Virus record (IMG/VR): IMGVR_UViG_3300045988_171811
Direction: 5' to 3' (one strand)
Length of the DNA stretch: 43,396 nucleotides
From: a virus
Part shown: positions 1 to 43,396 of the stretch, piece after piece
Layout of the letters: the number at the start of each line of letters is the position of its first letter
Position numbering within the stretch: position 1 is the first letter of the stretch
Notes under the pieces: generated by a model
What the model saw: only the letters and a program-made list of their open reading frames with translations
Database searches by the model: none
Told to the model about the DNA's origin: nothing
Position numbers and translations under genes: made by a program

Positions 1-55
1 GATTAAGACCAAGGCCGGCGCCTGATAAAATCGCCGTAAAGAAAAAATAACACAA
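1..55. repeat. Terminal 55-bp overlap identical to 43342..43396 (circular contig closure)
   Basis: The first 55 nt (gattaagacc...aataacacaa) match the last 55 nt of the window base for base. Nt 1-24 duplicate the 3' end and stop codon of the capsid gene. Confidence 0.95.
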
Positions 56-95
56 TCCATCCAAAACAAAATTTTTCCCAGGGGCGATTTCGGAG

Positions 96-302
96 ATGCG
101 ATCCTACAAGCACCGAGACCATGACATTGTGATCCATCTCGCAGACGACCACAATGTGATGCTCGGAGACGAATACACTGAGATCGATCCCGGGAATGAT
201 GGCGCTGGCGGGGCAGACGAGCCCACCTCCTCCCCTCGTACTGCCCCGCCGGCACCTGCACCTCGTAGGGGACGAGGCCGCCCCAGAAAGACCACAAAGT
301 GA
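96..302 (+). CDS. Hypothetical small protein with a Pro/Arg-rich basic C-terminus
   Basis: 68-aa ORF directly after the capsid gene. Its TGA overlaps the GTG start of the next gene (GTGA at 299-302), suggesting translational coupling. No family recognised. Confidence 0.45.
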   Translation: MRSYKHRDHDIVIHLADDHNVMLGDEYTEIDPGNDGAGGADEPTSSPRTAPPAPAPRRGRGRPRKTTK

Positions 303-784
303 TACCGGACGACATTATCCCGTTCGCCACGGTCGAAGACCTGGAAGCGCGGTGGCGGGCGCTCTCGGACAGTGAGCGTATTCGCGCTGACGTACTCCTC
401 GCCGACGCGACCGACCTCATCGTGTCGAAATGTCCCCGCTGGGAATCCGCCACGCCTCGCACGCGAAAGCGAGTGGCGTGCGCCGTGGTACGGCGCGCAA
501 TGCAGGGGGGAGATGCTATCGGCGGCGTCACCGACAGTGGTGGCGGAATCTACTCCGAGCCTCACGGGATTATCGCGTCAGAATCGCACACGACCGGCCC
601 ATTCTCCGATCAGTTCACGTATCAGAATCCTGAAGGCGGCCTCTACCTGAAACGCGAGGAAAAAGACGCTCTCGGCGGCTCCGGCGGCGCGTTCGAGGTG
701 GACCTCCTGCAGGATTATGACGTGCGATCCGCCACCGATCAGCTGATCGAAGACATTAACGCGATCGGCGGACAGGAACCGTAA
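299..784 (+). CDS. Head-tail connector / adaptor (gp6-like)
   Basis: The N-terminus (FATVEDLEARWRALSDSERIRADVLLADATDLI) has the typical head-tail connector pattern. Sits right after the capsid gene and is coupled to both neighbours. Confidence 0.6.
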   Translation: MIPDDIIPFATVEDLEARWRALSDSERIRADVLLADATDLIVSKCPRWESATPRTRKRVACAVVRRAMQGGDAIGGVTDSGGGIYSEPHGIIASESHTTGPFSDQFTYQNPEGGLYLKREEKDALGGSGGAFEVDLLQDYDVRSATDQLIEDINAIGGQEP

Positions 785-1113
785 TGCTTTCAGGGTATGT
801 GCCTGTCACACGGCGTAGGAGAGGCCCGGCGTCGAAAGACCAGTACGGTAACCCTGTGCCGGGGCAGTGGGAGAACGTTGCTCTGCCGCCCGCAGTGTTT
901 GCGCCGGCCACGTCTACTGAGCCGATCAGTGCTGGGGCAATGCCCGTCACTGTGCCCGCCGCCCTTTACTGGCGGAACACCACAATCGACGTGACCGCCG
1001 AAGATCATCTCATTGTAGACGGCATAGAATACCGTGTCGGGGGTCGCCCTTCTCCATACCCCAAGGGGACGGTTGTGCAGATTCGTGCCAACGAAGACAA
1101 GGTGAGCGAATAA
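784..1113 (+). CDS. Head closure protein (SPP1 gp16-like)
   Basis: 109 aa. TAATG overlap with the upstream gene. The pattern D.YG......W....a plus a C-terminal I.DG..Y.V is typical of head-closure proteins. Confidence 0.5.
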   Translation: MLSGYVPVTRRRRGPASKDQYGNPVPGQWENVALPPAVFAPATSTEPISAGAMPVTVPAALYWRNTTIDVTAEDHLIVDGIEYRVGGRPSPYPKGTVVQIRANEDKVSE

Positions 1114-1368
1114 ATGCCGAAAGTAAAATTCCAGCTCAACCGTGACGGTGTCGCCGATCTTCTCCGCGGCCCTGACGTGGCCCGGACCGTAGCATTAGAG
1201 ACAGGGCGCGTAGCCGCCGCTGCCGGCCGTGGGTTCGAGGGTGAGACGACGCACGGAAATCGTACTCGCGGATACGTCAGGGCACGCACCATTGCTGCAA
1301 TGCGCAGACAGATGAAGGAGCACACATTGGAGCGTGCGATCGGCCTCACAATGGGTGGCGGGAAATGA
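1114..1368 (+). CDS. Neck / tail-component protein (HK97 gp10-like position)
   Basis: 84 aa. The start abuts the upstream stop (TAAATG). Assigned from synteny within the connector cluster. Confidence 0.45.
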   Translation: MPKVKFQLNRDGVADLLRGPDVARTVALETGRVAAAAGRGFEGETTHGNRTRGYVRARTIAAMRRQMKEHTLERAIGLTMGGGK

Positions 1369-1754
1369 GCCCAACATACGATCGCGCCCCCACAGTGCCG
1401 GACATAAAGAAACGACTCATGGATTTTTTGTCCGCACACATGAGCGTGCCGATCGTGGCCCGCAGGCCCGAAAGTCCGGACCGTCCCGCCGCATTCATTC
1501 GAGTTCTCTCAACAGGCGGTACTGGAGTCACGCAGAAAGCGCTCTGTACCGCGCTGGAGACGATCGACGCCTATGCGCAGTCGTCGGGTGAGGCGATGAA
1601 GATTGCGTGCGAGGCCGTGAATGTGGCGCACACTATGCCGAACTATCAGGATGGTATAGTGATGGTACAATCATCCTATCCGATAGAAATGCCCGATCCG
1701 GACACGTCTCAGGCGAGGGCGACTGCAACATTAACAATTACAGCACACAGGTGA
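1365..1754 (+). CDS. Tail terminator / tail completion protein (DUF3168-like)
   Basis: 129 aa. ATGA overlap with the upstream gene. Lies immediately before the major tail protein. Confidence 0.5.
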   Translation: MSPTYDRAPTVPDIKKRLMDFLSAHMSVPIVARRPESPDRPAAFIRVLSTGGTGVTQKALCTALETIDAYAQSSGEAMKIACEAVNVAHTMPNYQDGIVMVQSSYPIEMPDPDTSQARATATLTITAHR

Positions 1755-1761
1755 ACAAATA

Positions 1762-2346
1762 ATGGCTGTTAACGCTGACAATGCACTCATTTTCTCGTCC
1801 GACAATGACGCGCTCTGGCTGGGCGACTATGTCGAGAAGTTCGGTGAGAAGGTCACGTCGCTCACCCAGGACCTCTCCGGTGTGACCGGTCTTACCAATG
1901 TTGGGTGGATTAGCGAGGATGGATTCAAGCTCACCTCGGACGACTCCGTCACCAAGATTAAGGGGCATCAGGGCCACGGAGTTGTCAAGACCTTCCTCGA
2001 CTCGTCGGAGACGACTTTCAGTGCCACTCTTCTGGAAACCAAGCTTGCCCCGCTCTCATGGTATCTTGACGCCACCAGTGAGAAGGTTGAGGATGGTGGC
2101 GCCACCAAGGGTGTGAAGATCACCGCCAAGTCTTCCCGCAAAGTCAAGCTTCTCTGCGGTGTCGCCGACTTCTTCGACGTTTCCGGTGTGGGTGCGCAGA
2201 TTCGTATTGTTTTCCCGCGTCTGGAGCTCGGTGAGCGTGGTGAGATTACTTTCCAGCAGGCTGAGATCACCGGCTACGAATACAACCTCTCCGTGCTGGG
2301 CGACTACATTATCTACTCCGACCACAAGGCGCTCTTCCCCGCCTGA
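1762..2346 (+). CDS. Major tail protein
   Basis: 194 aa. RBS aggtga upstream. Sits between the terminator protein and the chaperone pair, and is followed by a strong hairpin as expected for a highly expressed gene. Confidence 0.65.
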   Translation: MAVNADNALIFSSDNDALWLGDYVEKFGEKVTSLTQDLSGVTGLTNVGWISEDGFKLTSDDSVTKIKGHQGHGVVKTFLDSSETTFSATLLETKLAPLSWYLDATSEKVEDGGATKGVKITAKSSRKVKLLCGVADFFDVSGVGAQIRIVFPRLELGERGEITFQQAEITGYEYNLSVLGDYIIYSDHKALFPA

Positions 2347-2354
2347 CAGATGAT

Positions 2355-2407
2355 TCTTCCCCGCTATTCCGTGTTTCGGATGGGTTGTCGCGGAATAGTG
2401 GGGAAGA
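2355..2407 (+). terminator. Stem-loop after the major tail gene (attenuator or terminator)
   Basis: 17-nt arms tcttccccgctattccg / cggaatagtggggaaga, with one G-U pair and a 19-nt loop. There is no clear U-tract. Confidence 0.4.
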
Positions 2408-2463
2408 TCCAAAACAAACACAACCCACCCACTTTTGTAAAACAATTTTGAGGACAACCCATT

Positions 2464-2790
2464 ATGTCTGACAAGACCACGAAGAGCAAGGCAAAGTCGA
2501 CCGGTGCCAAGGTGCCGGCTGACAGGCTCGCCAAGGCCGAGGCCACGCGCGACCCGATTCACGTGGACTATGAGGGGATCGAGTTTGACATTCCTCCGGA
2601 GGCGTTGGAGGACTTCCGTGCGTTCGAGGCCCTCGACGCCGGTAATCCGTTTCCGCTTTTCCGCCTTATCGTGGGAGACCATAAGGATGAGGTCTACGCC
2701 GCGTTGGAGGACGAGAACGGTCGCGTTCCGATCGACGTGGTGACCGACTTTATGCAGTCAATCGTGTCCGAGGTGGGCGCGGGAAACTGA
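2464..2790 (+). CDS. Tail assembly chaperone (gpG-like, zero-frame product)
   Basis: 108 aa, acidic. RBS gagga. Ends on the slippery heptamer immediately before the tape measure region. Confidence 0.7.
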   Translation: MSDKTTKSKAKSTGAKVPADRLAKAEATRDPIHVDYEGIEFDIPPEALEDFRAFEALDAGNPFPLFRLIVGDHKDEVYAALEDENGRVPIDVVTDFMQSIVSEVGAGN

Positions 2791-3185
2791 CGATTCTCCC
2801 ACCTCTACTCCGCGAGTATGGGTGGGAGATAGAAGCCGACCTTCAACGATACTACAATACCGATCTCCTCGATCTATATCGAGGCAGAATAACCCCGCGG
2901 CGGATAATGGCGCTCATCGGCGGCCTCCCGCCCGGGTCAACATTCGATAGGACGCGAGGCGGAGACAGATACTGGTCTGACGAAGTGGCCGCCACAATAA
3001 TGTCAGCACACAATATTCAGACCACATTGCTCGCTGTCAATGGGGTTAAGAAAGATAAATGGCCTGAGACGCCGAAGCCTCCGGCCGAAGGATACCGGGA
3101 AACCGGTAACCCCAGAGTGTCAAGCAAACACGCTAAAGCGCAAAAAGCCAAGGGCGAGAAATGGCTCGCCCGATACGGCAGCTGA
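2464..3185 (+). CDS. Tail assembly chaperone, -1 frameshift fusion product (gpGT-like; join 2464..2787,2787..3185)
   Basis: The -1 frame continues LTILPPLLREYGWEIEADLQRYYNTDLLDLYRGRITPRRIMALIGGLP, which is typical of the T part of G/GT chaperones. No stop codon until 3185. Confidence 0.65.
2781..2787 (+). promoter_or_regulatory. Programmed -1 ribosomal frameshift slippery heptamer G_GGA_AAC
   Basis: X_XXY_YYZ in the zero frame: GGA = 2782-2784, AAC = 2785-2787, stop = 2788-2790. The -1 frame is open from 2787 to 3185. Confidence 0.75.
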
Positions 3186-3209
3186 ACCCGTGTTTCTATC
3201 GGATAGTGT

Positions 3210-3266
3210 AAAATGGTTCACGCCAAGACAAACACGAAAAACGGTTTGATTGGCGTGAACCATTTT
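3210..3266 (+). repeat. Perfect 16-bp inverted repeat (stem-loop) between the chaperone and tape measure genes
   Basis: aaaatggttcacgcca (3210-3225) and tggcgtgaaccatttt (3251-3266) are exact reverse complements with a 25-nt loop. The structure lies 28 nt upstream of the tape measure start. Confidence 0.7.
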
Positions 3267-3294
3267 CGCTACACATGATTTCGGAGAGGTATCA

Positions 3295-6200
3295 ATGGCC
3301 GGATATGATCTCGGGACCGCATGGATTCAGATCAGCCCGTCCGTGCGAGGCCTCGCCCGAAGCATCAATAGCGAAATCGGCAACGTCGACACCGGGCCGG
3401 CCGAGAGAAAGATCACATCCGGCCTGGGTGGTGCGTTCAAATCGGTAGCGAAAGTCGCCGGCGCCGCACTCGGAGGGCTCGCAATCGGCGGCATCGCCGT
3501 CGCATTCGGCGGCGTCGCAAAAGAAGCATTCAACGCGGCCGACGCCACAATCAAATTCAAACAAACGCTCGCATTCGCCGGTAAAAGCGCGGACGAAATC
3601 AACGCGCTCACAAAAAGCACGCGCTCCTACGCAGACCGCACAATTTACGAGCTCGACGACATTCAATCAATCACCGCACAGCTAGCATCCAACGGCGTAA
3701 AGGGCTACGATAAACTCGCCGAGGCGGCCGGTAACTTGAATGCTGTTGCTGGCGGGAATGCGCAGACGTTCAAAACGGTCGGCCTTGTCATGACGCAGAC
3801 CGCGGGTGCCGGAAAACTTACCACCGAGAACTGGAATCAGCTTTCCGACGCAATTCCTGGCGCATCTGGTAAATTGCAGGAAGCCATGAAAAAGAATGGC
3901 GCCTACACGGGCAATTTCCGGGAAGCCATGGAAAAGGGCGAGATCACCGCCGAGGAATTCAACCAAGCGATTCTCGACCTCGGTATGGAGGACGTGGCCA
4001 TTGAGGCCGCTACATCCACCAAAACCCTGGAAGGTGCCTGGGGGAACTTCAAGGCGACCCTTGTGACCGGGGCGCAGGAAATCGCCGAAAAAGCACTCCC
4101 GTGGATCACCGCATCCCTTGACGCTATGAGCAAAGGGTTCGAGAAAGTATTCAACTGGGTCAGTAACTCGTTCATTCCTAGTATTACGAATGCTTTCAAC
4201 GTTATCCGCAAGGGTGATTTCACGGGCCCGATCTTCTCGTTCGAGGAAGACTCAAGCTTCGTTGATTTTCTTTTCCGCATGCGTGACGCTGCCGCCGCCG
4301 CGGGGGAATGGATTAACAAGACGCTCGTCCCGTCGTTGAAGAATCTTAAAGATTTGCTCATGTCTGGTGATTTCACGGGGACGATTTTCGGATTCGACAA
4401 AGACTCTGGAATCATCTCGTACATCACCAACGTACGCAACAGTTTCGTCGAGCTCGGCAAATTCATTGTTGGGACGCTCGTCCCCGGCATCGCCACGGCG
4501 CTCAGCACCATCGCGAACAGCAGCCTTGTCCAATTCATGGAAAGTCTCACCGTCGCTATTCTCAATAGCAAAGTGGCGGTTTACAGCATTGCGGCTGCGT
4601 TCACGGCATGGAAAGCCGTCATGGTCATGTCCTCAATGCAGCAATGGCTAAATGACATGGAAGGCGTAGCCGGCGTAGCAGGGCGTGTCACCACGGCCAT
4701 TAACGCGATGACCGTGGCGAAGGTCAAAGACGTGGTTGAGACAGCGCAGCTCAACCTCATGTACGCCGGCGAATTCCTGTCGAATATCGCGCGTGCAACG
4801 ACGCAGATCACGATGCAGGCGGTTGCTTGGGGGAGGGCCACGGCAATGATGGTCCTCCACAAAACTGCAACAATCGCTTCAACTGCGGCGCAGTGGGCAT
4901 TCAACGCCGCAATGGACGCCAACCCAATCGGCCTTGTTGTGATCGCTATTGCAGCATTGGTCGCAGCCATTGTGGTGGCATGGCAGAATTCCGAAACATT
5001 CCGCAACGTCGTCATTTCTTGCTGGGAAGCAATCAAAACAGCAGCCGGGGCCGTGGCCGATTGGTTCGCCGCTAACGTATGGCCTCTCATGCAAGTCGCA
5101 TGGGACGGAATCGTGGCAGGCGCCCAGTGGATGTGGGGCGTCATGGTATCCGTCTGGCAAGGAATGCAACCTATTATTCAGGCGGTCATTGATTGGATCG
5201 TCGGTACCGCATGGCCCGCGCTTCAGGCGGCATGGGACGGGATTGTCGCCGGAGCCCAATGGGTATGGAACGGCATCGTCAGCGTCTGGCAGGGAATACA
5301 GCCCGTCATTCAAGCCGTCGTTGATTGGATCGTAAATACTGCGTGGCCCAACCTGCAAGCCGCCTGGGACGGCATTTCCGCGGGCGCAATGATCGTTTGG
5401 AACGGAATGGTCGCAGCCTGGCAGGGGATCAGCGACATAATCCGGCCTGTCGTTGATTGGATTGTCAACGTTGCCGCTTTGTATCTCACTACGGCATGGG
5501 ATGCTATCAGCTGGGGTGTGAGCGCGCTTTGGTCCACGATTCAGTGGGCGTGGGACGCTATTTGGGCGGCAATCATGCCCGTCGCCACACAAATCTACAA
5601 CGACATTTGGCCCATGGTAGTCGGCGCATTTAACGCGATTAAAGACACCGCCAGTATGATGTGGGCCGATATTCAGATCGCATGGACCGCAATTCAAACC
5701 GCAATTCAGCCCGTTGCAGATTGGATTTACAATACAGTTTGGCCTTGGGTCGTTGGCGCGTTCAATGCGATTAAAGACACAGCCGCCAACATGTGGGCCG
5801 ATATTCAGACCGCGTGGACCGCAATTCAAGCGGCAATGCAACCGGTAGTCGAGTGGATCTACTACACAGCATGGCCCTGGGTAGTCGATACATTCAACAC
5901 GATCAAAGATGCAGCGTCTAATCTTTGGGGCACTGTATCGGCGGCGTGGACCTCCATTCAGGCTGCAATGCAGCCCGTAGTCGAATGGATCTACTACACA
6001 GCATGGCCCTGGGTAGTCGATACATTCAATACAATCAAAGACACCGCCTCCGCCCTTTGGGGCACCATATCAGCGGCGTGGAACGGCATTTGGGCCACCA
6101 TTCAGCCCGTCGTTGATTGGATTTACAATATTGCATGGCCGTGGGTGGTCGGAGCATTCAACGCCATTAAAGACACGGCGTCTATTATGTGGGGCTCCCT

Positions 6201-7857: not shown

Positions 7858-7884
7858 AACCATTATGACGGAAAGCACAAAATA

Positions 7885-9734: not shown

Positions 9735-9744
9735 ACGGGGCATC

Positions 9745-32817: not shown

Positions 32818-32865
32818 GCACTCTCTTCCCTTCTTCAATGTTTGTGTTGTAAGAATCATGGAAGG

Positions 32866-36020: not shown

Positions 36021-36129
36021 ATCACACACCACCGCCATTCCAACACACAGAAAGGCTGGGCAAAAAGAGAAGAGAAAAGAGGAGAAGAGAAGACAAAGAG
36101 ACACAATGGTGTTCGGGGATTACGTGCGT

Positions 36130-36164
36130 GCTCGCAGGGCTGCGCGCGCACTACCCCGAACACC
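36130..36164 (+). repeat. 35-bp repeat copy 2 followed by a (GAGGAA)n purine-rich tract
   Basis: ttacgtgcgtgctcgcagggctgcgcgcgcactac lies 660 bp downstream of copy 1 and is followed by aaagaggaagaggaagaggaagaggagaag. Confidence 0.7.
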
Positions 36165-36969
36165 GAACAACAAAGAGGAAGAGGAAGAGGAAGAGGAGAA
36201 GACGGAGAACAGCGAACTAAAACAACACACCACGCCCCCTCCCCACCATTCCAGCACACGCATAAACCATCACCGCCATTCCACAATGACACAACCATGC
36301 CACAAAAACACTACCCTAAACCAACAATACTGTGACAGCAAACACAAAGGGCGGAAGAGAAGAGCAGAACAGGACACAGTTCCACACGCCACATACCACC
36401 GCACTTCCCCACCCACAACAAACACGACAATACACAAGACAGAAGAAGAGCGGGAACAACACAAGGGAAGCAGGACAACGCGAAGACAGGGAACACCATG
36501 AAGATGACGGGGACAACGCAAGACAGGGGACACCGCACACGCCAACACACCCCGCCCCTCAACACGGCCACCACACAAACGTAAGGGGGACGCCGATACA
36601 AAACGAGGGGACGTCATCACACAGACGAGAGGGTCATCATCGCAGCACCCGCCCTTCATTCACCATGCCACCCCACCACACAATGGCACCCCACCATCCA
36701 CTACGCCCCCACCCACCACCACCGTGAAGGGGGGAGCACACAGAGGATACCCCACCACACAAACACTGCAGACACGCACCACCCACACACCACACACCCG
36801 GCAGGCAACAGTGCACGACACGACAGCAGTACTCACACAGTACGCACGAGGAGTAGATGGCATGGGCCGCACGCACTTGGTCGGGCACACCACCGCCATT
36901 CCACAGCAGCACACACCGACGAGGATGGACACCATCCACTCTCCCACCTCACACTGTTCACGTTCACAC

Positions 36970-37310
36970 AACCAACGAACAACAATGATCAACGAACATG
37001 ATGATGAACAATCATCGTTCAATGATCAATCAATCAACAATGAATGATGAACATCATGATGATCAATGATGATCAACAATAAACATGATCAACATGATGA
37101 TGAACATCACGATGATGATGTGATGCATGACATGCATACCAATACCATGCACCATGCATGGTGCCAACGCATGCCACAAGGCAACATGCAATGCACAAAC
37201 GCACAAACACACAAAAAAGCATAAAAACAAAAGAAATGTTACAAAAAATGCAAAAATATTCAAGGCACGAATCGAACAATGGCGTTCAAAAAAACCATGG
37301 CAACAAAACG
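36970..37310. repeat. AT-rich degenerate repeat tract (ATGATCAA / ATGATGAACA / ATGCAT) with phased A-tracts
   Basis: Five ATGATCAA copies place GATC at 36987, 37024, 37061, 37071 and 37087. A5-7 tracts begin at 37213, 37223, 37243, 37252 and 37288. Confidence 0.7.
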
Positions 37311-37319
37311 AGACGAACA

Positions 37320-37353
37320 TAAGGGATCCCTTAAAAGAGTAAGGGATCCCTTA
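37320..37353. promoter_or_regulatory. Two 14-bp perfect palindromes TAAGGGATCCCTTA, 20 bp apart
   Basis: Copies at 37320-37333 and 37340-37353. Each is part of a 16-bp direct repeat, taagggatcccttaaa. Confidence 0.75.
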
Positions 37354-37491
37354 AAGTGGGACCCACACCACAAAACAAGACAGGGAACACACACAAACGA
37401 GACACACACCACACAAATTATGTGATGGGGGCCACCCCCCCTCCCCCATCTGGCCGCGAACACCCCGAAGGTCTGCCCATCTCTCCCTGCT

Positions 37492-37620
37492 TGTGGAAAA
37501 CCCTGTGGATAACTCCAGTAATCCATGTCACAATGTGACTGCCGTCATGTGGAAAACTCCCAAACCTGTGGAAAACCCTGTGGAAAACTCAGACAGCCTG
37601 TGGATAACCCTGTGGAAAAC
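37492..37620 (+). promoter_or_regulatory. Cluster of seven co-oriented TGTGGAWAAC boxes (complement of DnaA-box consensus TTWTCCACA; alternatively terS/cosB-type sites)
   Basis: Boxes start at 37492, 37504, 37548, 37567, 37579, 37599 and 37611. Two are TGTGGATAA (perfect TTATCCACA) and five are TGTGGAAAA. Three pairs have 12-bp spacing. The extended consensus is CCTGTGGAAAACYC. Confidence 0.7.
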
Positions 37621-37626
37621 CCCGCA

Positions 37627-37663
37627 GGAACATGACTGACATTACAGCATATAATAGAGGGTA
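37627..37663 (+). promoter_or_regulatory. Candidate late/packaging promoter with a perfect -10 TATAAT and a leaderless terS start
   Basis: TATAAT is at 37650-37655. The terS ATG begins at 37663, 7 nt after the -10, and has no usable SD (the only SD-like element, gaggg, lies just 1 nt upstream). The weak -35 is ggaaca with a 17-nt spacer. Confidence 0.4.
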
Positions 37664-37944
37664 TGACAACCCACACAAACACCACAATCACCGTATACGA
37701 ACCCAACAGCCCCGCACCCATCACAGACGCCACAAACACCGGCAACCCCACCCTCATCCGCCAAGCACTCGCACACAAAATCGCCACCGTCATAGACGAC
37801 CCCAGGACAGGCGACACAGCACTCACAAAACTCACCGCACAACTCATACAAATCACAGACCAACTCGCCACCACACAAAACGAAAACACACAAACACACA
37901 CCACCGACATTCCAAACGAAACACAAACCTGGGACGGCATCTGA
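37663..37944 (+). CDS. terS: Small terminase subunit (candidate)
   Basis: 93 aa. The stop overlaps the terL ATG (ATCTGATG). The segment LIRQALAHKIATVIDDPRTGDTALTKLTAQLIQITDQLA resembles the C-terminal helices of actinophage small terminases. Sits directly upstream of terL. Confidence 0.5.
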   Translation: MTTHTNTTITVYEPNSPAPITDATNTGNPTLIRQALAHKIATVIDDPRTGDTALTKLTAQLIQITDQLATTQNENTQTHTTDIPNETQTWDGI

Positions 37945-39437
37945 TGAGCGAAAAACACCTATCCGAAATCGCCGCCCACCTCACCCTCCCAGAAAACATC
38001 ACACACACAGCCTGGCCACCAGTCCAACGCCGCCTCCAAGAAATGCAATACCCCCTCGACGTATGGCAGCAAGACTGGCTAAAAGCAATCCTCGCAAAAA
38101 GAAAAGACGGCCACTACGCCGCCAGCATCGACGGAATTCAAGCATCCATCCCTCGTCAGGTCGGCAAAACATACACAATCGGCGGCCTCACATTCGCACT
38201 CGCCACCCTCCACCCAAACTACTTCGTCCTCTGGACCGCACACCGCACACGCACCGCGGACGAAACATTCAACGACATGAAAGGCATGGCACAAATCCCC
38301 AACATCGCCCCATACGTAAACAAAATACGGCAAGCAAACGGACAACAAGCCATCCTCTTCAACAACGGATCACGCATTCTCTTCGGAGCCCGCGAAGGCG
38401 GATTCGGGCGAGGATTCCACGGCGTAGACATGATACTTTTCGACGAAGCCCAGATCCTAGGCGCCGCCGCACTAGACGACATGATCCCCGCCACAAACAC
38501 GGCGCCCGACCCACTCATCATCAAAATCGGGACACCACCAAAACCAAAAGACCCATCCGAAGCATTCAGCGAATTCCGCAACCTCGCCCTGCAAGGCGAA
38601 ATAAAAGACGGCCTCTACCTCGAACTGGCCGCCGACTATGACGCCAACAGCGACGACAGGAAACAATGGGAAAAAGCAAACCCATCATACCCGCGCCGCA
38701 CACCCGAATCCGCCATTCTAAGAATGCGCCGGCAGCTCGGAGAAGAATCATTTCGACGTGAAGGCCTCGGAATATGGGACCGCGCCAACGACAGACTCGC
38801 AATCGACCCAATCGCTTGGAACGCCGCCGCAATACGGCCAGAAAACACTCCGTCTGGTATGCGGTGGTGCGCCGCGATCAGGTTCGCACCCGACGGATCA
38901 ACGTGCGCCCTAGCCCGAGCTGGACATAAGCAAAACACGCCCACACACGTCGAACTCTGCACACACCAAGGCGTCCGCCGCATGAGTGAGGGCACACAAT
39001 GGATCATCGACTACATTGCAGACACAAAAGACAGATGGGCGCAAATCATCGTAGACGGAAAATACGGTGCCGGAGACACAATCGAAAGACTCCGTGCCAT
39101 CGGAGTACGCCCGCAAGTCATTATCACGCCCACGATCACGCAAATCGTAGACGCTTACAGCATGCTAGACGCCTCACTACGCGAAAAAACAATCACGCAC
39201 CTGGACGACATGCAACTGAGAACCGAAGCCGCGTCCGCAACATCACGCCCAATCGGAACATCAGGAGGATGGGCGCTACAGGCCCCGCCCGGCGCCACAG
39301 TAGCCGGCCTAGAGGCATGCACGCTCGCAATGTGGGCCGCACGCACAACAAAAAGAAGGCCTCGTTACAAGCCTTATGATAAAATCGAGAACGCCAATAG
39401 TAATACTGGACGTGGCGGCGGAGTATTGTTCCTATGA
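37944..39437 (+). CDS. terL: Terminase large subunit
   Basis: The start is set at ATG 37944 (MSEKHLSEIAAHL). Walker A IPRQVGKT and Walker B MILFDEAQ, with a C-terminal nuclease region. The track ORF's 104-aa His/Arg/Thr N-terminal extension is rejected. Confidence 0.85.
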   Translation: MSEKHLSEIAAHLTLPENITHTAWPPVQRRLQEMQYPLDVWQQDWLKAILAKRKDGHYAASIDGIQASIPRQVGKTYTIGGLTFALATLHPNYFVLWTAHRTRTADETFNDMKGMAQIPNIAPYVNKIRQANGQQAILFNNGSRILFGAREGGFGRGFHGVDMILFDEAQILGAAALDDMIPATNTAPDPLIIKIGTPPKPKDPSEAFSEFRNLALQGEIKDGLYLELAADYDANSDDRKQWEKANPSYPRRTPESAILRMRRQLGEESFRREGLGIWDRANDRLAIDPIAWNAAAIRPENTPSGMRWCAAIRFAPDGSTCALARAGHKQNTPTHVELCTHQGVRRMSEGTQWIIDYIADTKDRWAQIIVDGKYGAGDTIERLRAIGVRPQVIITPTITQIVDAYSMLDASLREKTITHLDDMQLRTEAASATSRPIGTSGGWALQAPPGATVAGLEACTLAMWAARTTKRRPRYKPYDKIENANSNTGRGGGVLFL

Positions 39438-41050
39438 CTGAAATTTATCCTGACGACGGACGACTCGTTAATGCTACGCCCGCCCCCACACGCATTTCCG
39501 GACTCCCCGACGACGACAAGGTAACATTCCTGCAACTGTGGCAGAAATGGCAGCAGCACTCAAACAAAAACAAGCTGCTGTCCGTCTACTACGACGGCCA
39601 CCGCGCTTTCCAGGACTTGGGTATTAGTATTCCGCCGCAAATGACGCGCACCAAGGCGGCGCTTGGGTGGCCTCAGAAAGTCGTCACCATGCTCGCCCGA
39701 CGGCACGTGTTCGAGGGCTACTCGTTGAACGGCGCCCCCGACGCCTTCGAAGCAAACGAAATACTCTCCGCAAACAACTACGACCTTGACCTCGCGCAGG
39801 CAATAACGTCCGCCTACAAGCATTCTTTCTCACTACTTACAGTGACACGGGGGGACGAGACCATCGGCGAACCGCCTGTCGTCGTGCAGGCCCGTGACGC
39901 AGAATGGGGCGCCGCCCTTTGGGACACTAGGCGCCGCATAATCGAAGCCGCCCTCACAATCGACAAGACCGACAAATACGGGCAGCCCGCCGGCGCCATC
40001 ATGCACACCCCCACCGCCATTTGGCGAATCGACGCCAAAGAAAACGGTGGCGGATGGAAAGCTGAAAAGCTCGGAGACACGCCCAACCGCATTTTCGTCG
40101 AAGCACTCTGCTACGACCCGCAGCTGAACCGCCCATTGGGGCATTCACGAATCACCCGTGAAGTAAGATATCTCACGGACGCGGCGGTGAGGACAATGGT
40201 CCGTGCGGAAACATCCGCAGAATTCTTCTCCTCCCCGCAGCGGTACGTGCTCGGTGCGGAAAGAGCAGATTTCGCCGGCCAAGACAGGTGGTCCGCAATC
40301 ATGGCCCGAGTCCAAGTACTCGAGCCGAACGAGAACGGCGACATTCCCAGTGTTGGGCAATTCTCACAAATGACCATGAGCCCTCACCTGGAAATGTACC
40401 GTCAGCTGGCGCAGAATTTGTGTGCAGCCACAAACCTCCCTCAATCCGCCATCGGAGTATTCGCGGAGAATCCTGCCTCGGCTGAGGCGATGCAGGCGGC
40501 TGAGGCGGCGCTCGCGGACGAAGCCGAGTACCAATGGCGCATTTTCACCGCCCCGCTGCGGCGCACTTTGCAGAACATTATTATGGTCCGGGATAAGCTT
40601 GACGAGCCTCCCGCTGAGTCCTGGAAGACCTCGGTGAAGTGGACCCCCGCCCGCTATTCCTCGCCCTCGTCTGCCGCCGATTTCGCGGTCAAAATGGTGT
40701 CCGCGTTCCCGTCGCTGCAGGAGTCGCAGACTCTCATGCGGCGTGCCGGACTCACCGAGGACGATCTCGCAGATATCAACGCCGAAAATCGTAAGAAGAA
40801 TGCGGTGTCCCTACTCGACCGAGCTCTCGCCGCCACAAACAACGAGAACACTGTGGACGAGAACGGCGAAAACGCCGAGAATGATGACACAGCCAACAAT
40901 GATGGCGGCGACAATGCCGACAATGTTGGCAACAGCAACGGCGGCAACGGTAGCGGCAATAACCTGGGCATTAATAACGCACCCAATACAAGGAACCGGG
41001 TTAAGCGCAACATCAAACTGCCCGGCGGCACTAAAACACCAATAAACTAA
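39434..41050 (+). CDS. Portal protein (SPP1 gp6-like)
   Basis: 538 aa. ATGA overlap with terL. Conserved order terL-portal-MuF. The C-terminal tail is Asn/Gly/Asp-rich and low-complexity. Confidence 0.8.
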   Translation: MTEIYPDDGRLVNATPAPTRISGLPDDDKVTFLQLWQKWQQHSNKNKLLSVYYDGHRAFQDLGISIPPQMTRTKAALGWPQKVVTMLARRHVFEGYSLNGAPDAFEANEILSANNYDLDLAQAITSAYKHSFSLLTVTRGDETIGEPPVVVQARDAEWGAALWDTRRRIIEAALTIDKTDKYGQPAGAIMHTPTAIWRIDAKENGGGWKAEKLGDTPNRIFVEALCYDPQLNRPLGHSRITREVRYLTDAAVRTMVRAETSAEFFSSPQRYVLGAERADFAGQDRWSAIMARVQVLEPNENGDIPSVGQFSQMTMSPHLEMYRQLAQNLCAATNLPQSAIGVFAENPASAEAMQAAEAALADEAEYQWRIFTAPLRRTLQNIIMVRDKLDEPPAESWKTSVKWTPARYSSPSSAADFAVKMVSAFPSLQESQTLMRRAGLTEDDLADINAENRKKNAVSLLDRALAATNNENTVDENGENAENDDTANNDGGDNADNVGNSNGGNGSGNNLGINNAPNTRNRVKRNIKLPGGTKTPIN

Positions 41051-41058
41051 CACTTATT

Positions 41059-41784
41059 ATGCTGTCAACCGCAGAAATCGGGGCATACGGTCGAGCAATA
41101 GACTCACTCACCACACTCGCCCAAAACGACCTACACGCGCTCTGGGCGCACGCCGCACGGCAAAGGCCCCAGGACGCCCGCGACCTTCTGCTCGAAATCA
41201 TGCCCGCCCTCGTAGACCAATACGGTAATGCGGCCGCCGCAATCGCCGACGAATGGTACCGCGACATGCGCCTAGACCAAGACATTCCCGGCGACGCCCC
41301 CACAGTACAAACATCACTCACACCACAAGGCGAAATAGACGACAGCGTCAGATTCAGCGCGGGCGCACTATACGCCGGAAACCAAGACATTGCCCTATCC
41401 TATCTGACCGGGGCGCTCATCCGATACGTCAGCGACGGAGCCCGCTCACAAATCGCAGACATGACATGGGCCGACCCGGAAGCCATGGGCTGGGAAAGAC
41501 GAACACGTAACCCACAAGCCTGCAATTTCTGCGTCATGCTCACAATGAACGAATGCTACTACCGGTCACAGGGGACCGCGTCGTTCGGGGCGCACGATAA
41601 CTGCAAATGTGTCGCGGTCCCAGCATGGGACCCGACCTCCCGCGAAGTTCCCGCGAAAGCGTACACGCTCGCGGCCAGACACAAAACTGATAAAGGTCGC
41701 AAACGGCATCGTGAACTCGTCTCATCGTGGATAGACACGCACCAGGAAGAGCTCGCAGAATGGCGCACTCGGCCAATTGAATGA
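41059..41784 (+). CDS. MuF-like head morphogenesis / minor capsid protein
   Basis: The C-terminal motif CNFCVML...HDNCKCVAVP matches the Phage_Mu_F signature (C..C...H.NC.C). Follows the portal gene. Confidence 0.7.
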   Translation: MLSTAEIGAYGRAIDSLTTLAQNDLHALWAHAARQRPQDARDLLLEIMPALVDQYGNAAAAIADEWYRDMRLDQDIPGDAPTVQTSLTPQGEIDDSVRFSAGALYAGNQDIALSYLTGALIRYVSDGARSQIADMTWADPEAMGWERRTRNPQACNFCVMLTMNECYYRSQGTASFGAHDNCKCVAVPAWDPTSREVPAKAYTLAARHKTDKGRKRHRELVSSWIDTHQEELAEWRTRPIE

Positions 41785-41891
41785 TTGTGCTACAATGCAT
41801 AAACAAGGGCCACGAAAGACGGCTGCAAAGCCCAGAATAGTTGCCTGAAAACATCACAACAACCGCACGGTCAAAATATAGGAAACGCCCA

Positions 41892-42374
41892 ATGAGCGAT
41901 AACGTTGCAAGCGACACGCCAGCCGACAACAGCGCCACTAACGACGACAACGCCTCCACGAACGGGGACAACGCTGCTAGTAAGCCCGAAATCGACTGGA
42001 AGAGCGAGTCCCGTAAGTGGGAGAATCGCGCCAAGGAAAATCGGCGCGCCGCTAACGAACGAGACGAGCTCGCCAAGGCAATCGGCGACAAAGACGCCAC
42101 AATCGAAGCCCTAAAGGCCAAAGTGGCAGATTTCGAAACTGCCGCCAAAGTTCGCGAATGGTCCGCCAACGCCGCCGCCGAGCATGGTATCAGCGCCGAT
42201 TTGATCCGAGGAACAACCGAGGACGAAATCAACGCTCATGCTGCCGCAATCGCCAAGGCACTGCACGACGCTAAGCCGTCCGTCGCCCCCGTGGTACCAC
42301 AGGCCGGAGCCACGCCCGACAATGACGGCGGCAATCTTGCAGAATTCGCTCGGAATGTTTTCGCCGGCGACTAA
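41892..42374 (+). CDS. Scaffolding protein
   Basis: The start is set at ATG 41892. Ala/Glu/Lys-rich helical sequence (KWENRAKENRRAANERDELAKAIGDKDATIEALKAKVADFE). Immediately precedes the capsid gene. Confidence 0.65.
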   Translation: MSDNVASDTPADNSATNDDNASTNGDNAASKPEIDWKSESRKWENRAKENRRAANERDELAKAIGDKDATIEALKAKVADFETAAKVREWSANAAAEHGISADLIRGTTEDEINAHAAAIAKALHDAKPSVAPVVPQAGATPDNDGGNLAEFARNVFAGD

Positions 42375-42433
42375 AACACGCTAGCCGCTATTCTAAAAAG
42401 TAAAACACTAGAAAGAAACGGAAACCAACTAAA

Positions 42434-43366
42434 ATGGCCGTGTTTGATTCAGGCAAGGCAAAGGTCCTCATGCCTCGGCAGATTGCCGACGGGATCATTA
42501 CTCGTACTCAGACTCTCTCCACCGTCGCCAAGCTCAACGGTGGAATCCCCATGACTTTCGGCGACGTGGACATTATCACTTTCGATAATTTCCCGCGCGC
42601 CGAGTTCGTTGACGAGGGCGCTGAAAAGGCGCCCACCTCCGGTGAATTCGGCTATGTGACCGCTAAGCCGCATAAGGCGCAGGTTACTATGCGATTCAAC
42701 GAGGAGGTCCAGTGGGCCGACGAGGATTATCAGCTGGACGTCCTCAACCAGCTCGCGCAGAAGGGTAGTGAGGCGCTTTCCCGGGCCCTTGACCTCGGAC
42801 TTTATCACCGTGTTAACCCGCTGACTGGCGCTGTTATTGACGCGTGGACCAATTACCTGACCTCCACCACCAAGAATGTCGAGATTGGCACTACGGAGAT
42901 GGACCAGGCGATCCGTCAGGCCGCCGGTCTGCTCATTAATGATAATGCTGCGCCGATTACCCCCACTGGTCTTGCGCTTGCCCCGTCCGCGGTTTGGGCG
43001 CTCGGTAGTCTCCAGACCAAGAATGCAGACGGGTCGCCGTCGGGGACGCCGCGTTACCCGCAGATCGGCCTTGGTGTCAACATTGACAACTTTATGGGAC
43101 TTCCGGCTGCCGCTGGAAACACTGTTGCCGGTAAGCCTGAGGCGACCGCCGCCACCAATGTCGAGGGCATCGTCGGCGATTTCGTGGATGGTATTCGGTG
43201 GGGAATTCAGCGTTCTCTTCCGCTTGAGATTATCCGTTTCGGTGACCCGGACGGCCAGGGTGATTTGAAGCGTCGGAACCAGATCGCTCTGCGTCTCGAG
43301 ATTCTGTACGCTTGGTATGTTTTCCCGGACAAGTTCGCGACGATTAAGACCAAGGCCGGCGCCTGA
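42434..43366 (+). CDS. Major capsid protein (HK97 fold)
   Basis: 310 aa, following the scaffold gene. Composition and length are typical of HK97-like capsid proteins. Its 3' end runs into the 55-bp terminal overlap. Confidence 0.8.
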   Translation: MAVFDSGKAKVLMPRQIADGIITRTQTLSTVAKLNGGIPMTFGDVDIITFDNFPRAEFVDEGAEKAPTSGEFGYVTAKPHKAQVTMRFNEEVQWADEDYQLDVLNQLAQKGSEALSRALDLGLYHRVNPLTGAVIDAWTNYLTSTTKNVEIGTTEMDQAIRQAAGLLINDNAAPITPTGLALAPSAVWALGSLQTKNADGSPSGTPRYPQIGLGVNIDNFMGLPAAAGNTVAGKPEATAATNVEGIVGDFVDGIRWGIQRSLPLEIIRFGDPDGQGDLKRRNQIALRLEILYAWYVFPDKFATIKTKAGA

Positions 43367-43396
43367 TAAAATCGCCGTAAAGAAAAAATAACACAA
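43342..43396. repeat. Terminal 55-bp overlap identical to 1..55
   Basis: Exact match to window positions 1-55. Confidence 0.95.

What the first reader, a model, noticed from the sequence alone, without database searches (positions are those of the whole stretch)
1..43396. Complete circular phage genome with host-type parS and DnaA-box elements but no recognisable integrase, repressor or partition genes
The 55-bp end overlap closes the contig at 43,341 bp, so the gene inventory is complete. I recognise packaging, head, tail, lysis, replication and recombination genes. I see nothing with tyrosine or serine recombinase hallmarks, no CI/Cro-like HTH pair, and no ParA Walker ATPase or ParB. The genome nevertheless carries three perfect chromosomal parS sites and a cluster of seven DnaA-box-like sequences beside an AT-rich tract. 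One coherent hypothesis is a phage, possibly an episomal prophage, that recruits host DnaA for initiation and host ParABS for segregation or positioning without encoding its own. I am not aware of that arrangement having been described. Actinophages known to use partitioning, such as some cluster A mycobacteriophages, encode their own parABS.
Basis: inference. Interest (0 to 1): 0.75.

Follow-up and report, generated by a model that had tools for sequence, protein, structure and literature searches.

The report
Oral phage carrying host parS sites
This is the complete genome of a very common human-mouth phage with no genes for integration, repression or partition, yet it keeps three perfect copies of its host's chromosome-segregation site and a row of DnaA-box look-alikes next to its DNA ends, which resembles the way Bacillus phage phi29 uses host DNA-binding proteins.

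Summary
Every sequence observation holds. There is a 55-bp end overlap (43,341-bp unit). There are three perfect 16-bp parS sites, and seven same-strand TTWTCCACA boxes at 37492-37619. Pfam and PHROGs searches of the whole inventory found no integrase, repressor, ParA or ParB.

The interpretation needs revision in three respects.

1. The virion DNA is probably linear with cos ends at about 37464-37473. Ten independent assemblies start exactly at 37474. The box array lies 19-146 bp inside the left end, directly upstream of terS-terL. The AT-rich tract lies on the other side of the cut.
2. No contig shown to be integrated turned up in hundreds of oral metagenome assemblies or in 185,579 reference genomes. 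Nothing indicates lysogeny.
3. The arrangement has a precedent. Virulent phage phi29 carries host Spo0J/ParB parS sites and Spo0A boxes without its own partition genes.

The parS sites are under selection. They stay perfect in about 50 relatives while the spacer between them changes in sequence and length.

The box array is a lineage-specific insertion. Distant relatives with the same cos core and the same small-TerS type lack it. Its unit, CCTGTGGAWAAC, equals E. coli oriC R1. Whether host DnaA or the small terminase binds it is unresolved.

Verdict: real and conserved, a new variant of a known strategy.

The parts
1..55 (.). Assembly overlap, identical to 43342-43396. It closes the contig at 43,341 bp.
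13832..13847 (.). parS site A, a perfect TGTTTCACGTGAAACA. It starts 2 nt after the stop codon of the last late-operon gene, at a convergent junction.
   Evidence: All 16 columns are invariant in 44 aligned relatives.
13839..13892 (.). Bidirectional terminator-like hairpin that overlaps the right half of parS A.
   Evidence: dG -39.8 (+ strand) and -37.7 (- strand) kcal/mol, z -7.0 and -5.4
20975..21020 (.). Terminator-like GC-rich hairpin after the holin gene, immediately before parS B1.
21017..21032 (.). parS site B1, perfect.
21041..21056 (.). parS site B2, perfect. It ends 1 nt before the stop of the last gene of the leftward replication operon.
   Evidence: The spacer between B1 and B2 varies in sequence and length (6-10 nt) among relatives, while both sites stay perfect.
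37464..37473 (.). Inferred cos cleavage region, with a putative ~10-nt 3' overhang CCCGAAGGTC. The left end begins at 37474 and the right end stops at about 37463.
   Evidence: Ten independent contigs start at 37474. Right ends or junctions lie at 37462/37463. The CCCCGAAGG core is conserved in distant relatives. This is inferred, not measured.
37492..37619 (-). Array of seven DnaA-box-like repeats. The unit is CCTGTGGAWAAC on the + strand and TTWTCCACA on the - strand. There are three tandem pairs with a 3-bp spacer plus one single box.
   Evidence: There are 5-9 copies in relatives. Logo from 350 units. Identical to E. coli oriC R1.
37663..37944 (+). terS, small terminase, 93 aa.
   Evidence: phrog_1459, E 2.9e-5, near full length. 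Intact and 95% identical in 18 relatives. Aligns with 89-96-aa ORFs upstream of terL in distant relatives.
37944..39437 (+). terL, large terminase.
   Evidence: Pfam Terminase_6N; phrog_9, E 1e-46
35676..36020 (+). HNH endonuclease near the right genome end. The longest ORF starts at 35379.
   Evidence: Pfam HNH, E 8e-10. The conserved core is 92% identical in relatives.
36021..37463 (.). Non-coding right-end region of 1.45 kb. The + strand is 60-79% A+C. It contains ATGATGA-type repeats (36960-37130), a 16-bp palindrome (37149), an AT-rich tract (37200-37262) and two TAAGGGATCCCTTA palindromes (37320, 37340).
   Evidence: ORFs here are interrupted by stops in relatives, and external gene calls are inconsistent. 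Repeats. Palindromes. Skew.
39434..43366 (+). Late structural operon, first part: portal 39434-41050, VG15-like protein 41059-41784, scaffold-like protein 41841-42374, capsid 42434-43366. It continues across the window ends.
96..13830 (+). Late structural operon, second part: head-tail genes, tape measure 3295-7857 (with NlpC/P60 domain), tail proteins, and a Spherulin4-like protein at 12841-13830.
13907..17946 (-). Leftward block with a dCTP deaminase/dUTPase-like gene (14625-15143), a DUF3310/nucleotide-kinase-like gene (15595-16623) and ORFans.
18182..20958 (+). Lysis block: endolysin-like gene (18182-19654) and holin (20725-20958).
21058..33795 (-). Leftward early/replication-recombination operon. 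It comprises a RuvC-like gene, a 354-aa ORFan, DUF669, AAA_24, an exonuclease, an SNF2 helicase, a primase-like gene, a DUF3987 helicase and ORFans.
   Evidence: Independent gene calls.

Best explanation
The window is the complete genome of a widespread human-oral siphovirus, deposited as Siphoviridae sp. ctio73. Its host is unknown but is probably an oral member of the Actinomycetota. It packages linear DNA from a cos site at about 37464-37473, using HNH, TerS and TerL. It has no lysogeny or partition genes.

Most likely mechanism (inferred): like Bacillus phage phi29, the phage borrows host DNA-binding proteins through cis sites alone. The three perfect parS sites load host ParB onto the cos-circularised phage DNA. 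They sit beside the bidirectional terminators at the two convergent junctions in the middle of the genome. When lytic growth is delayed in slow-growing plaque cells, the genome is then positioned and passed to both daughter cells by the host ParABS machinery. This would be a repressor-less carrier state rather than true lysogeny.

The array of 5-9 CCTGTGGAWAAC repeats is a lineage-specific insertion between the conserved cos core and terS. I consider it slightly more likely to bind host DnaA than to be only a small-terminase recognition site. If it binds DnaA, it would couple late transcription, packaging or replication start to host growth state, as the Spo0A boxes at phi29 promoters and ends do. 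The two roles are not exclusive.

Shown: the sites, their positions, their conservation, the gene inventory and the absence of integrated copies. Inferred: who binds the sites and what follows from it.
For: parS is real and selected. There are three perfect sites, with 0.35 expected at up to 3 mismatches. All are kept at the same positions in about 50 relatives. The B1-B2 spacer and the neighbouring hairpin loops vary in sequence and length while the 16-mers stay perfect. Some relatives have a fourth site.

The phage has no ParAB of its own.

Precedent: the phi29 genome has parS sites for host Spo0J and 0A boxes for host Spo0A, used for spore entrapment and lytic suppression (PMC2731898; PMC9437464). 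Phi29 carries 4 sites with 1 mismatch. One of them lies directly between the gene 16 stop and the bidirectional terminator TD1, the same layout as site A here. Other bona fide phages in IMG/VR, phi29-like and HK97-type, carry 3-4 perfect parS.

Not integrated: there is no close relative in the reference genomes. An identical TerS occurs in 137 assembly blocks, and all but one have contigs of 50 kb or less. The 304-aa ORFan has 1,186 homologues; among the 120 best listed, the longest contigs are about 43 kb, with one of 54 kb.

cos.

Boxes resemble DnaA sites. The 11-13-mer is identical to E. coli oriC R1 and R4. The only variable position in 350 units is the W of the TTWTNCACA consensus. Tandem pairs have the 3-bp spacer typical of origin tandem boxes (PMC8287927). 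The array is absent from relatives that share the cos core and the small-TerS type.
Against: No binding data exist and the host is unidentified. Its DnaA-box preference is therefore unknown. From my own knowledge, high-GC actinobacteria favour TTGTCCACA, which is almost never seen in these arrays.

The box array occupies exactly the slot where lambda has cosB, at +19 to +146 from the left end with terS at +190. No other repeat lies between cos and terS, so binding by the small terminase alone remains a strong alternative.

The likely host group does not sporulate, so the selective benefit known for phi29 does not transfer directly.

The tandem parS B1/B2 and half of site A can also pair into RNA hairpins next to terminators.

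A novel repressor among the ORFans cannot be excluded. AlphaFold models of the two largest ORFans were poor.
Confidence: 0.45

Rival explanations
1. One reading: a stably maintained episomal prophage. Replication is initiated by host DnaA at an oriC-like origin (box cluster plus AT-rich tract), and host ParABS partitions it like a plasmid.
For: After cos joining, the 1.45-kb non-coding right end and the box array form one roughly 1.7-kb non-coding region with plasmid-oriV-like ingredients. The right end contributes the AT-rich tract, iteron-like ATGATGA repeats and palindromes. Strand-composition skew peaks there. The parS sites are central in the genome, as parABS cassettes are in extrachromosomal mycobacteriophages (PMC7157519). 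There is no integrase.
Against: No repressor or immunity gene was found. The phage encodes its own primase-like and DUF3987 helicase proteins. No DnaA-trios or DUE abut the boxes, and the AT tract is more than 230 bp away across the cos cut. None of the 185,579 reference genomes carries a close relative as a plasmid-like contig, and PLSDB has none. Many assemblies break exactly at cos, as expected for abundant linear virion DNA.
Confidence: 0.17
2. The box array is simply cosB, the recognition site of the small terminase, and its likeness to DnaA boxes is coincidental. Only the parS sites involve a host protein.
For: The geometry matches lambda cosN-cosB-Nu1: left end at 37474, repeats at +19 to +146, terS at +190, then terL. 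The repeats are direct, in one orientation, and vary in copy number from 5 to 9, as expected for DNA wrapped on a TerS ring. An HNH endonuclease sits by the right end.
Against: The chance that one arbitrary 12-mer contains TTWTCCACA is about 6e-5 (my estimate). The match extends to the flanks of E. coli R1 and R4. Distant relatives with the same cos core and the same small-TerS type have no repeats; there terS or the next gene starts 40-55 bp after the cut. The phage demonstrably mimics another host origin-region site, parS.
Confidence: 0.3
3. Decoy model. During lytic replication, hundreds of phage copies carrying 3 parS sites and 7 DnaA boxes each titrate host ParB and DnaA. This blocks host chromosome segregation, SMC loading and new initiation. 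No carrier state is involved.
For: It needs no phage protein partner, which fits the inventory. Both elements copy host origin-region sites. It is compatible with a strictly virulent lifestyle. Another unrelated viral contig combines a 6-box array with a parS site.
Against: Purely inferential. Phi29, the one studied case, uses parS for segregation and not for titration. Only 2-4 sites per genome are kept. Multiplying sites would be an easy route to stronger titration, but copy number does not grow.
Confidence: 0.12
4. The parS sites recruit host ParB to load SMC/condensin at mid-genome. This zips the two arms together, helping to juxtapose the cos ends or to resolve replicated genomes.
For: In linear coordinates the sites lie at 19.7 and 26.9 kb of 43.3 kb, flanking the midpoint (calculated). 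ParB-parS is the known SMC loader in Firmicutes and Actinobacteria (established knowledge).
Against: No direct evidence. The sites coincide with the only two convergent junctions, which may simply be the available non-coding slots. Phi29's sites are not central.
Confidence: 0.08
5. The palindromes are only parts of transcription terminators, and their identity to parS has no meaning.
For: All three abut strong hairpins. B1 and B2 can pair with each other, and half of site A extends the terminator stem.
Against: A random 16-bp palindrome equals parS with probability 4^-8 (about 1.5e-5), and this happened at three to four separate sites. There are no compensatory variants in about 50 relatives, although spacers and loops vary. 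Phi29 has the same layout with functional Spo0J sites.
Confidence: 0.03

Closest known systems
Bacillus phage phi29 'alternative infection strategy' (host Spo0J/ParB parS sites plus host Spo0A boxes; Meijer et al. 2005, as cited in PMC2731898 and PMC9437464)
   Same: A virulent phage with no ParA or ParB, integrase or repressor. It carries several host-consensus parS sites, one placed directly against the bidirectional terminator at the convergent late/early junction. It also carries binding sites for a second host master DNA-binding protein near the genome ends and promoters.
   Different: Phi29 is an unrelated virus: a protein-primed podovirus of Bacillus, against a cos siphovirus of a probable actinobacterial host here. 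The sites here are perfect 16/16 matches, whereas phi29's have 1 mismatch. The second motif resembles DnaA boxes, not 0A boxes, and sits in the cos-terS gap. The likely host does not form spores, so the benefit must differ. Nothing has been tested experimentally here.
Extrachromosomal actinobacteriophage prophages with parABS (cluster A mycobacteriophages such as RedRock; PMC7157519)
   Same: Actinobacterial siphoviruses that lack integrase. Their centromere sites are central in the genome, at the position where relatives carry an integration cassette. A non-coding region may serve as an origin.
   Different: Those phages encode their own ParA and ParB with phage-specific parS, and they have a repressor. 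This phage has none of these and uses the host chromosomal consensus parS.
Lambda-type cos region (cosN-cosB-Nu1/A) and HNH-assisted cos packaging (HK97-like)
   Same: Defined ends. Repeats lie between the cut and terS. The order is terS then terL. An HNH endonuclease sits at the other end. In lambda cosB a host factor (IHF) binds among the terminase sites (established knowledge; geometry).
   Different: The repeats are copies of a consensus DnaA box and are absent from relatives with the same cos core. The ends and overhang are inferred from assemblies only.
CtrA-box 'lytic deferment' phages of Alphaproteobacteria (PMC9437464)
   Same: Virulent-looking phages that carry clustered binding sites for a host cell-cycle master regulator in terminal or non-coding regions.
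   Different: The regulator and host group differ. That study found no positional signal for DnaA sites in those phages.
DnaA-dependent origins (chromosomal oriC/BUS; plasmid oriV types with DnaA boxes)
   Same: A cluster of consensus boxes, tandem pairs with a 3-bp spacer, and an AT-rich tract and iteron-like repeats within 300-500 bp once cos is closed.
   Different: No DnaA-trios or unwinding element lie next to the boxes, and the cos cut runs through the would-be origin. No Rep-type initiator is recognised. The phage has its own primase/helicase.

Membership tests
phi29-type hitchhiking on host ParB | Phage lacks its own ParA/ParB | tested here: met
   Pfam and PHROGs on all ORFs; motif scan
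phi29-type hitchhiking on host ParB | Several sites matching the host chromosomal parS consensus | tested here: met
   Three perfect 16-mers, conserved in about 50 relatives. The consensus itself is established knowledge.
phi29-type hitchhiking on host ParB | Virulent gene content (no integrase or repressor) and never found integrated | tested here: met
   A novel repressor cannot be excluded.
phi29-type hitchhiking on host ParB | Host ParB binds the sites and directs segregation of the phage DNA | not testable with these tools
   Needs EMSA, ChIP or microscopy in the unidentified host.
phi29-type hitchhiking on host ParB | Sites for a host master regulator that suppress or time the lytic cycle | tested here: inconclusive
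   An array of DnaA-box look-alikes lies at the left end, upstream of a possible TATAAT at 37649 and of terS. The binding protein is unknown.
Plasmid-prophage with own partition system (P1, N15, cluster A parABS phages) | Encodes ParA-type ATPase and ParB/SopB | tested here: not met
Plasmid-prophage with own partition system (P1, N15, cluster A parABS phages) | Encodes an immunity repressor | tested here: not met
   No HTH or repressor family at E<0.01 in any ORF. No operator-like repeats in the divergent region 33796-33961.
Plasmid-prophage with own partition system (P1, N15, cluster A parABS phages) | Found as a plasmid in isolate genomes | tested here: not met
   No close match in PLSDB or in the GTDB representatives.
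Integrating temperate phage | Tyrosine or serine recombinase | tested here: not met
   A distant relative, the Propionimicrobium element NZ_CP127391, has one.
Integrating temperate phage | Copies flanked by host DNA | tested here: not met
   Gene positions in the one 53,984-bp contig fit a longer-than-unit phage assembly, but its ends were not read.
cos-packaging phage with HNH-TerS-TerL | Defined genome ends | tested here: met
   Ten contigs start at 37474. Ends or junctions lie at 37462/3. This is an inference from assemblies, not from reads.
cos-packaging phage with HNH-TerS-TerL | terS-terL next to the left end, HNH endonuclease near the right end | tested here: met
cos-packaging phage with HNH-TerS-TerL | TerS binds repeats beside the cut (cosB) | not testable with these tools
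   Position fits. Relatives with the same cos core lack the repeats.
DnaA-dependent origin (oriC/BUS-like) | Two or more consensus DnaA boxes, tandem with a spacer of 3 bp or less | tested here: met
   criterion from PMC8287927
DnaA-dependent origin (oriC/BUS-like) | DnaA-trios (three or more NAN/GAT repeats) within about 16 bp of the boxes, followed by an AT-rich unwinding element | tested here: not met
   Read by eye on both flanks. The left flank is GC-rich up to the cos cut. The right flank is the terS leader.

The most novel reading that the evidence does not exclude
A very prevalent human-oral phage clade maintains a repressor-less, integrase-less carrier state in a non-sporulating actinobacterial host purely through cis-acting mimicry of the host origin region. 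Perfect parS sites hand the circularised genome to host ParABS. A cos-adjacent array of high-affinity DnaA boxes lets host DnaA gate late transcription, packaging or replication. This would extend the phi29 principle to a new virus type, a new host phylum and a new host regulator (DnaA). The many other parS-bearing phages in IMG/VR suggest that it may be a general and overlooked phage strategy.
Probability: 0.25. Interest if true: 0.8.

Novelty: new variant of a known kind. Interest (0 to 1): 0.58.

Why it matters
If host ParB, and possibly host DnaA, really act on this genome, a strictly 'lytic-looking' phage found in hundreds of human oral metagenomes would have a hidden persistence mode. 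Gene-based lifestyle predictors cannot see such a mode, because it is encoded only in short DNA sites. That would bear on how oral phages coexist with their hosts for months and on how phage lifestyle is predicted. It would also bear on whether the phi29 Spo0J/Spo0A strategy, known for twenty years in one family, is widespread. The scan for perfect parS in IMG/VR hit its 120-contig limit before reaching this clade, and it included phi29-like and HK97-type phages with 3-5 sites. The cos-adjacent DnaA-box array is also a clean test case for whether a host initiator can be co-opted in packaging or late control.

Tried and rejected
1. Close annotated relatives. Megablast against INPHARED phages and PLSDB plasmids found none. 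The best isolate is Schaalia phage LC001, with 55% portal identity.

2. Host identification failed. There is no tRNA. The homologues listed for the lysin and the 304-aa ORFan come from metagenomic or virus-labelled records and carry no host name. The reference-genome scan found only 41%-identical Leucobacter prophages.

3. Hidden integrase or ParB folds. AlphaFold2 on the two largest ORFans (304 and 354 aa), using alignments of their homologues, gave pLDDT 55 and 47. That was too poor for a fold search, which was therefore not run. Profile and sequence searches against PDB sequences found nothing.

4. Rfam found no RNA family in the window.

5. The promoter/terminator consensus scan was no better than shuffles.

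6. Isolated TTATCCACA boxes at 28570 and 33410 lie inside genes. The one at 33410 is not conserved, so both were dismissed.

7. A DnaA-trio/BUS architecture next to the array was looked for and not found.

8. Literature searches for phages with host parS or with DnaA boxes at cos first returned nothing. The phi29 precedent surfaced only after phi29-like contigs appeared among the parS-bearing viral contigs.

9. The idea that the parS-flanked 7.2-kb segment is a mobile module was dropped. All relatives are collinear.

Full report
OBSERVATION

The window's first and last 55 bases are identical, so the unit genome is 43,341 bp at 55.3% GC. The 16-mer TGTTTCACGTGAAACA occurs at 13832, 21017 and 21041. 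No further site appears even with 3 mismatches allowed, where shuffles give 0.35 matches on average. These are the longest perfect palindromes in the genome and the only one present three times. Seven TTWTCCACA boxes, all on the minus strand, lie at 37492-37619. A tract of about 25% GC lies at 37200-37262. All sequence statements of the finding are therefore correct.

GENE INVENTORY

I called genes with a self-trained codon model. I then checked doubtful ORFs by asking whether they stay open in 18 relatives and against independent gene calls in public assemblies.

Pfam on about 70 ORFs and PHROGs on about 40 gave the following assignments:
- Packaging and head: TerS (37663-37944), TerL, SPP1-type portal, a VG15-like protein, scaffold and HK97-type capsid.
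- Tail: tape measure with an NlpC/P60 domain, tail proteins, and a Spherulin4-like protein.
- Nucleotide metabolism: a dCTP-deaminase/dUTPase-like protein and a DUF3310/nucleotide-kinase-like protein.
- Lysis: an endolysin-like protein and a holin.
- Replication and recombination: RuvC-like, DUF669, AAA_24, exonuclease, SNF2 helicase, primase-like and DUF3987 helicase proteins.
- An HNH endonuclease.

No integrase or recombinase, HTH repressor, ParA or ParB family was hit at E<0.01. The ParB GERRxRA and ParA KGGxGK signatures are absent from all six frames. The two largest ORFans (304 and 354 aa) gave poor AlphaFold models (pLDDT 55 and 47) and no PDB sequence match. 'No recognisable' lysogeny or partition gene is therefore confirmed. 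'None at all' cannot be proven.

WHAT KIND OF PHAGE

The window is the TPA record Siphoviridae sp. ctio73. More than 60 IMG/VR contigs of 41-43.4 kb share 93-98% TerL identity and 80-92% DNA identity. A TerS identical to the window's is found in 137 assembly blocks; the ten places shown include human oral metagenomes. The 304-aa ORFan has 1,186 homologues.

The nearest isolated phage is Actinomyces/Schaalia phage LC001, with 55% portal identity. TerL is 41-43% identical to prophages of Leucobacter and to a Propionimicrobium phage-plasmid. An oral actinobacterial host is thus likely but not identified.

PHYSICAL ENDS

Eight IMG/VR contigs from different samples, and two further ENA assemblies, begin at exactly window position 37474. 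That position is always 19 nt before the first box, whatever the array length. On the other side:
- One contig ends at 37462.
- One has a chimeric junction after 37463.
- One shows a fold-back at 37463.
- One runs into a Nextera adapter at 37453.

The intervening CCCGAAGGTC, with the flanking G/C-rich inverted motif and ATCTCTCCC, is conserved in LC001, the Propionimicrobium element and the Leucobacter prophages. An HNH endonuclease lies upstream and terS-terL downstream. This is the signature of an HNH-assisted cos phage with a short 3' overhang. The 'circle' is what assemblers make of cos-joined or concatemeric DNA. The overhang itself is inferred, not measured.

LIFESTYLE

No close relative exists in 185,579 species-representative genomes or in PLSDB. 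Contigs carrying the phage's proteins are almost all 47 kb or shorter. The single 53,984-bp contig has gene positions that fit a 1.25-unit phage assembly, but its ends were not read.

The Propionimicrobium relative carries integrase, HTH regulators and an antirepressor right after its lysis genes. In this phage that position holds only parS B1/B2, followed by the end of an inverted replication operon. Relatives are collinear and none has room for a lysogeny module. Nothing therefore indicates classical lysogeny.

THE parS SITES

All three sites are kept, in place and perfect, in about 50 relatives. Counts range from 2 to 4, some relatives have gained a fourth site about 50 bp beyond site A, and a few sites carry one mismatch. 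In the alignment of site A all 16 columns are invariant in 44 sequences. At site B the spacer between the two sites differs in sequence and length (6-10 nt) in nearly every relative, and the loop of the adjacent hairpin varies, yet both 16-mers stay perfect. That pattern is purifying selection on the palindromes themselves.

A second oral phage group with a 57%-identical lysin has none within 10 kb of that gene. LC001 and the sequenced parts of the Leucobacter prophages have none either.

Each site abuts a strong bidirectional terminator-like hairpin at one of the two convergent junctions. In linear coordinates they lie at 19.7 and 26.9 kb of 43.3 kb. The tandem sites can pair with each other as RNA. 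A pure hairpin role cannot explain identity to the parS consensus at three or four independent places, or the absence of compensatory variants.

PRECEDENT

A scan of IMG/VR for the perfect 16-mer stopped at its 120-contig limit without reaching this clade. Eleven of those loci have 3 or more sites. Pfam showed that several are true phages: two phi29-like podoviruses, with Phi29 MCP plus Gp16 or tail knob, and an HK97-type siphovirus. Only 2 of the 120 loci show a ParB motif nearby.

This led to the literature on phi29. [quoted passage not shown] Spo0J helps segregate the phage genome into the prespore, and Spo0A suppresses early transcription, late activation and replication (PMC2731898; also PMC9437464). 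In the phi29 reference genome I find four sites with one mismatch and one weak site. The site at 17243-17258 sits between the stop of gene 16 and the bidirectional terminator TD1. That is the same layout as site A here.

A virulent phage with host-type parS and no partition genes has therefore been described. What is new is the virus type, the host phylum, the perfect consensus sites, and the companion motif.

THE BOX ARRAY

The array is conserved in relatives with 5-9 copies, always in one orientation. Over 350 units the logo is C-N-TGTGGAWAA-C-Y-C, and the only freely variable core position is W. The unit CCTGTGGATAAC is identical to E. coli oriC R1, and its 11-mer is identical to R4, read directly from MG1655. 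Tandem pairs have the 3-bp spacer described for tandem origin boxes (PMC8287927). These points favour host DnaA as the binder.

Position favours the terminase. The array fills the gap between the left end (+19 to +146) and terS (+190), as cosB does in lambda. No other repeats occupy that gap.

Two further observations shift the balance somewhat towards DnaA. Relatives with the same cos core and the same roughly 90-aa TerS type have no repeats at all; there terS or the next gene starts 40-55 bp after the cut, and HNH lies within about 110 bp before it. The array and the 1.45-kb non-coding right end are therefore lineage-specific insertions flanking cos. In addition, the Leucobacter prophages carry a single TTTTCCACA about 10 bp after the conserved left-end motif.

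An origin of the oriC/BUS type is not supported. No DnaA-trios or unwinding element adjoin the boxes. The AT-rich tract is on the other side of the cut, and the phage has its own primase/helicase. After cos closure, however, the region from HNH to terS is one roughly 1.7-kb non-coding stretch containing iteron-like repeats, palindromes, an AT tract and the boxes. The strand-composition skew also peaks there. A replication or control function for the joined region cannot be excluded.

My estimates for what binds the array are: host DnaA about 45%, TerS only about 30-40%, another phage protein about 15-20%.

CONCLUSION

The best-supported reading is a virulent-type cos siphovirus that, like phi29, uses host DNA-binding proteins through cis sites. 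Host ParB at the parS sites is likely. Host DnaA at the cos-adjacent array is possible. The probable purpose is to position, inherit or time its genome when lysis is deferred.

The stable-episome model with a DnaA-fired origin is a weaker rival. Decoy and SMC-loading roles are also open.

The finding is a new variant of a known kind. It is of moderate to high interest because of its prevalence, the strength of selection on the sites, and the unusual DnaA-box array at a cos site.

Noticed in passing
window 35400-42400, peak at 36200-38000: The + strand is 60-79% A+C (AT skew up to 0.8). The skew starts sharply at about 35.4 kb, runs through the cos site, and decays over about 5 kb into the terminase, portal and head genes, regardless of coding. 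The Schaalia phage LC001 record starts with a similarly T-poor stretch. This may reflect one strand being single-stranded for a long time (a replication start near cos), or an R-loop or RNA-based function.
   Followed up: partly
window 36120-36154: A 35-nt GC-rich block (TACGTGCGTGCTCGCAGGGCTGCGCGCGCACTACC) is 100% identical in many relatives, inside a region that is otherwise about 82% identical. It is flanked by an 11-nt inverted repeat (GGTGTTCGGGG/CCCCGAACACC) and by GA-rich tracts. CGAACACC recurs at the cos right end.
   Followed up: no
window 36960-37130, 37149-37164, 37320-37353: Dense ATGATGA/TGATCAA-type direct repeats (a 55-nt unit twice). There is also a 16-bp palindrome GCACCATGCATGGTGC and two copies of the 14-bp palindrome TAAGGGATCCCTTA 20 bp apart, all in the non-coding right end. 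These are candidate binding sites for phage proteins (iterons, cosQ-like elements or operators).
   Followed up: partly
window 21540-22604 (- strand): The 354-aa ORFan two genes from parS B has three repeats of an F-x-S/T-x3-A-I/L-x-W-C-Y/F motif, reminiscent of AP2-type DNA-binding modules, plus a CxxC...CPC zinc-ribbon-like segment. Its homologue clusters have more than 2,000 member sequences. There was no Pfam, PHROG or PDB hit, and the AlphaFold model was poor.
   Followed up: partly
L146, L153, L160, L246 (phi29-like), L163 (HK97-type), L161, L201 (5 sites each): Unrelated IMG/VR viral contigs carry 3-5 perfect chromosomal parS sites within 14 kb or less, mostly with no ParB motif nearby. 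This suggests that host-parS carriage by phages is widespread.
   Followed up: partly
L250 positions 787-850 and 5988: A 36.7-kb viral contig (GC 37%) has six direct GGTTATTCACA repeats (DnaA-box consensus TTATNCACA) at an 11-bp period, upstream of an XRE-like HTH gene. It also has one perfect parS next to terminase-like genes. This is a second phage that combines both motifs.
   Followed up: no
L065 about 3129 and L063 about 2745: Leucobacter prophage relatives (TerL 41%) carry a single TTTTCCACA about 10 bp after the conserved left-end motif ATCTCTCCCC, in the orientation opposite to the array in the window.
   Followed up: no
L316 (phi29) 17243-17258: One of phi29's Spo0J sites lies exactly between the gene 16 stop codon and the annotated bidirectional terminator TD1. 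This mirrors the position of parS A in the window.
   Followed up: yes
L028 1-103; L269 end; L274 end: Assembly artefacts cluster at the inferred cos site. They are a fold-back inverted duplication at 37463, a Nextera adapter after 37453, and 67 nt of unrelated AT-rich sequence after 37463.
   Followed up: partly
window 12841-13830 and 3295-7857: The last late gene encodes a Spherulin4-like (glycoside-hydrolase-like) protein, possibly a tail-associated exopolysaccharide depolymerase. The tape measure protein carries an NlpC/P60 peptidase domain.
   Followed up: no
L300 (NZ_CP127391.1, Propionimicrobium sp.): A 40.5-kb circular 'plasmid' in a complete genome is a temperate phage with integrase, HTH regulators and an antirepressor. 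It has the same cos core, the same small-TerS type and an HNH endonuclease, but no parS and no box array.
   Followed up: yes
window 37649-37654: A perfect TATAAT lies 8 nt upstream of the terS start and about 30 nt after the last box. The array could therefore act as an upstream element of a late or terS promoter.
   Followed up: no
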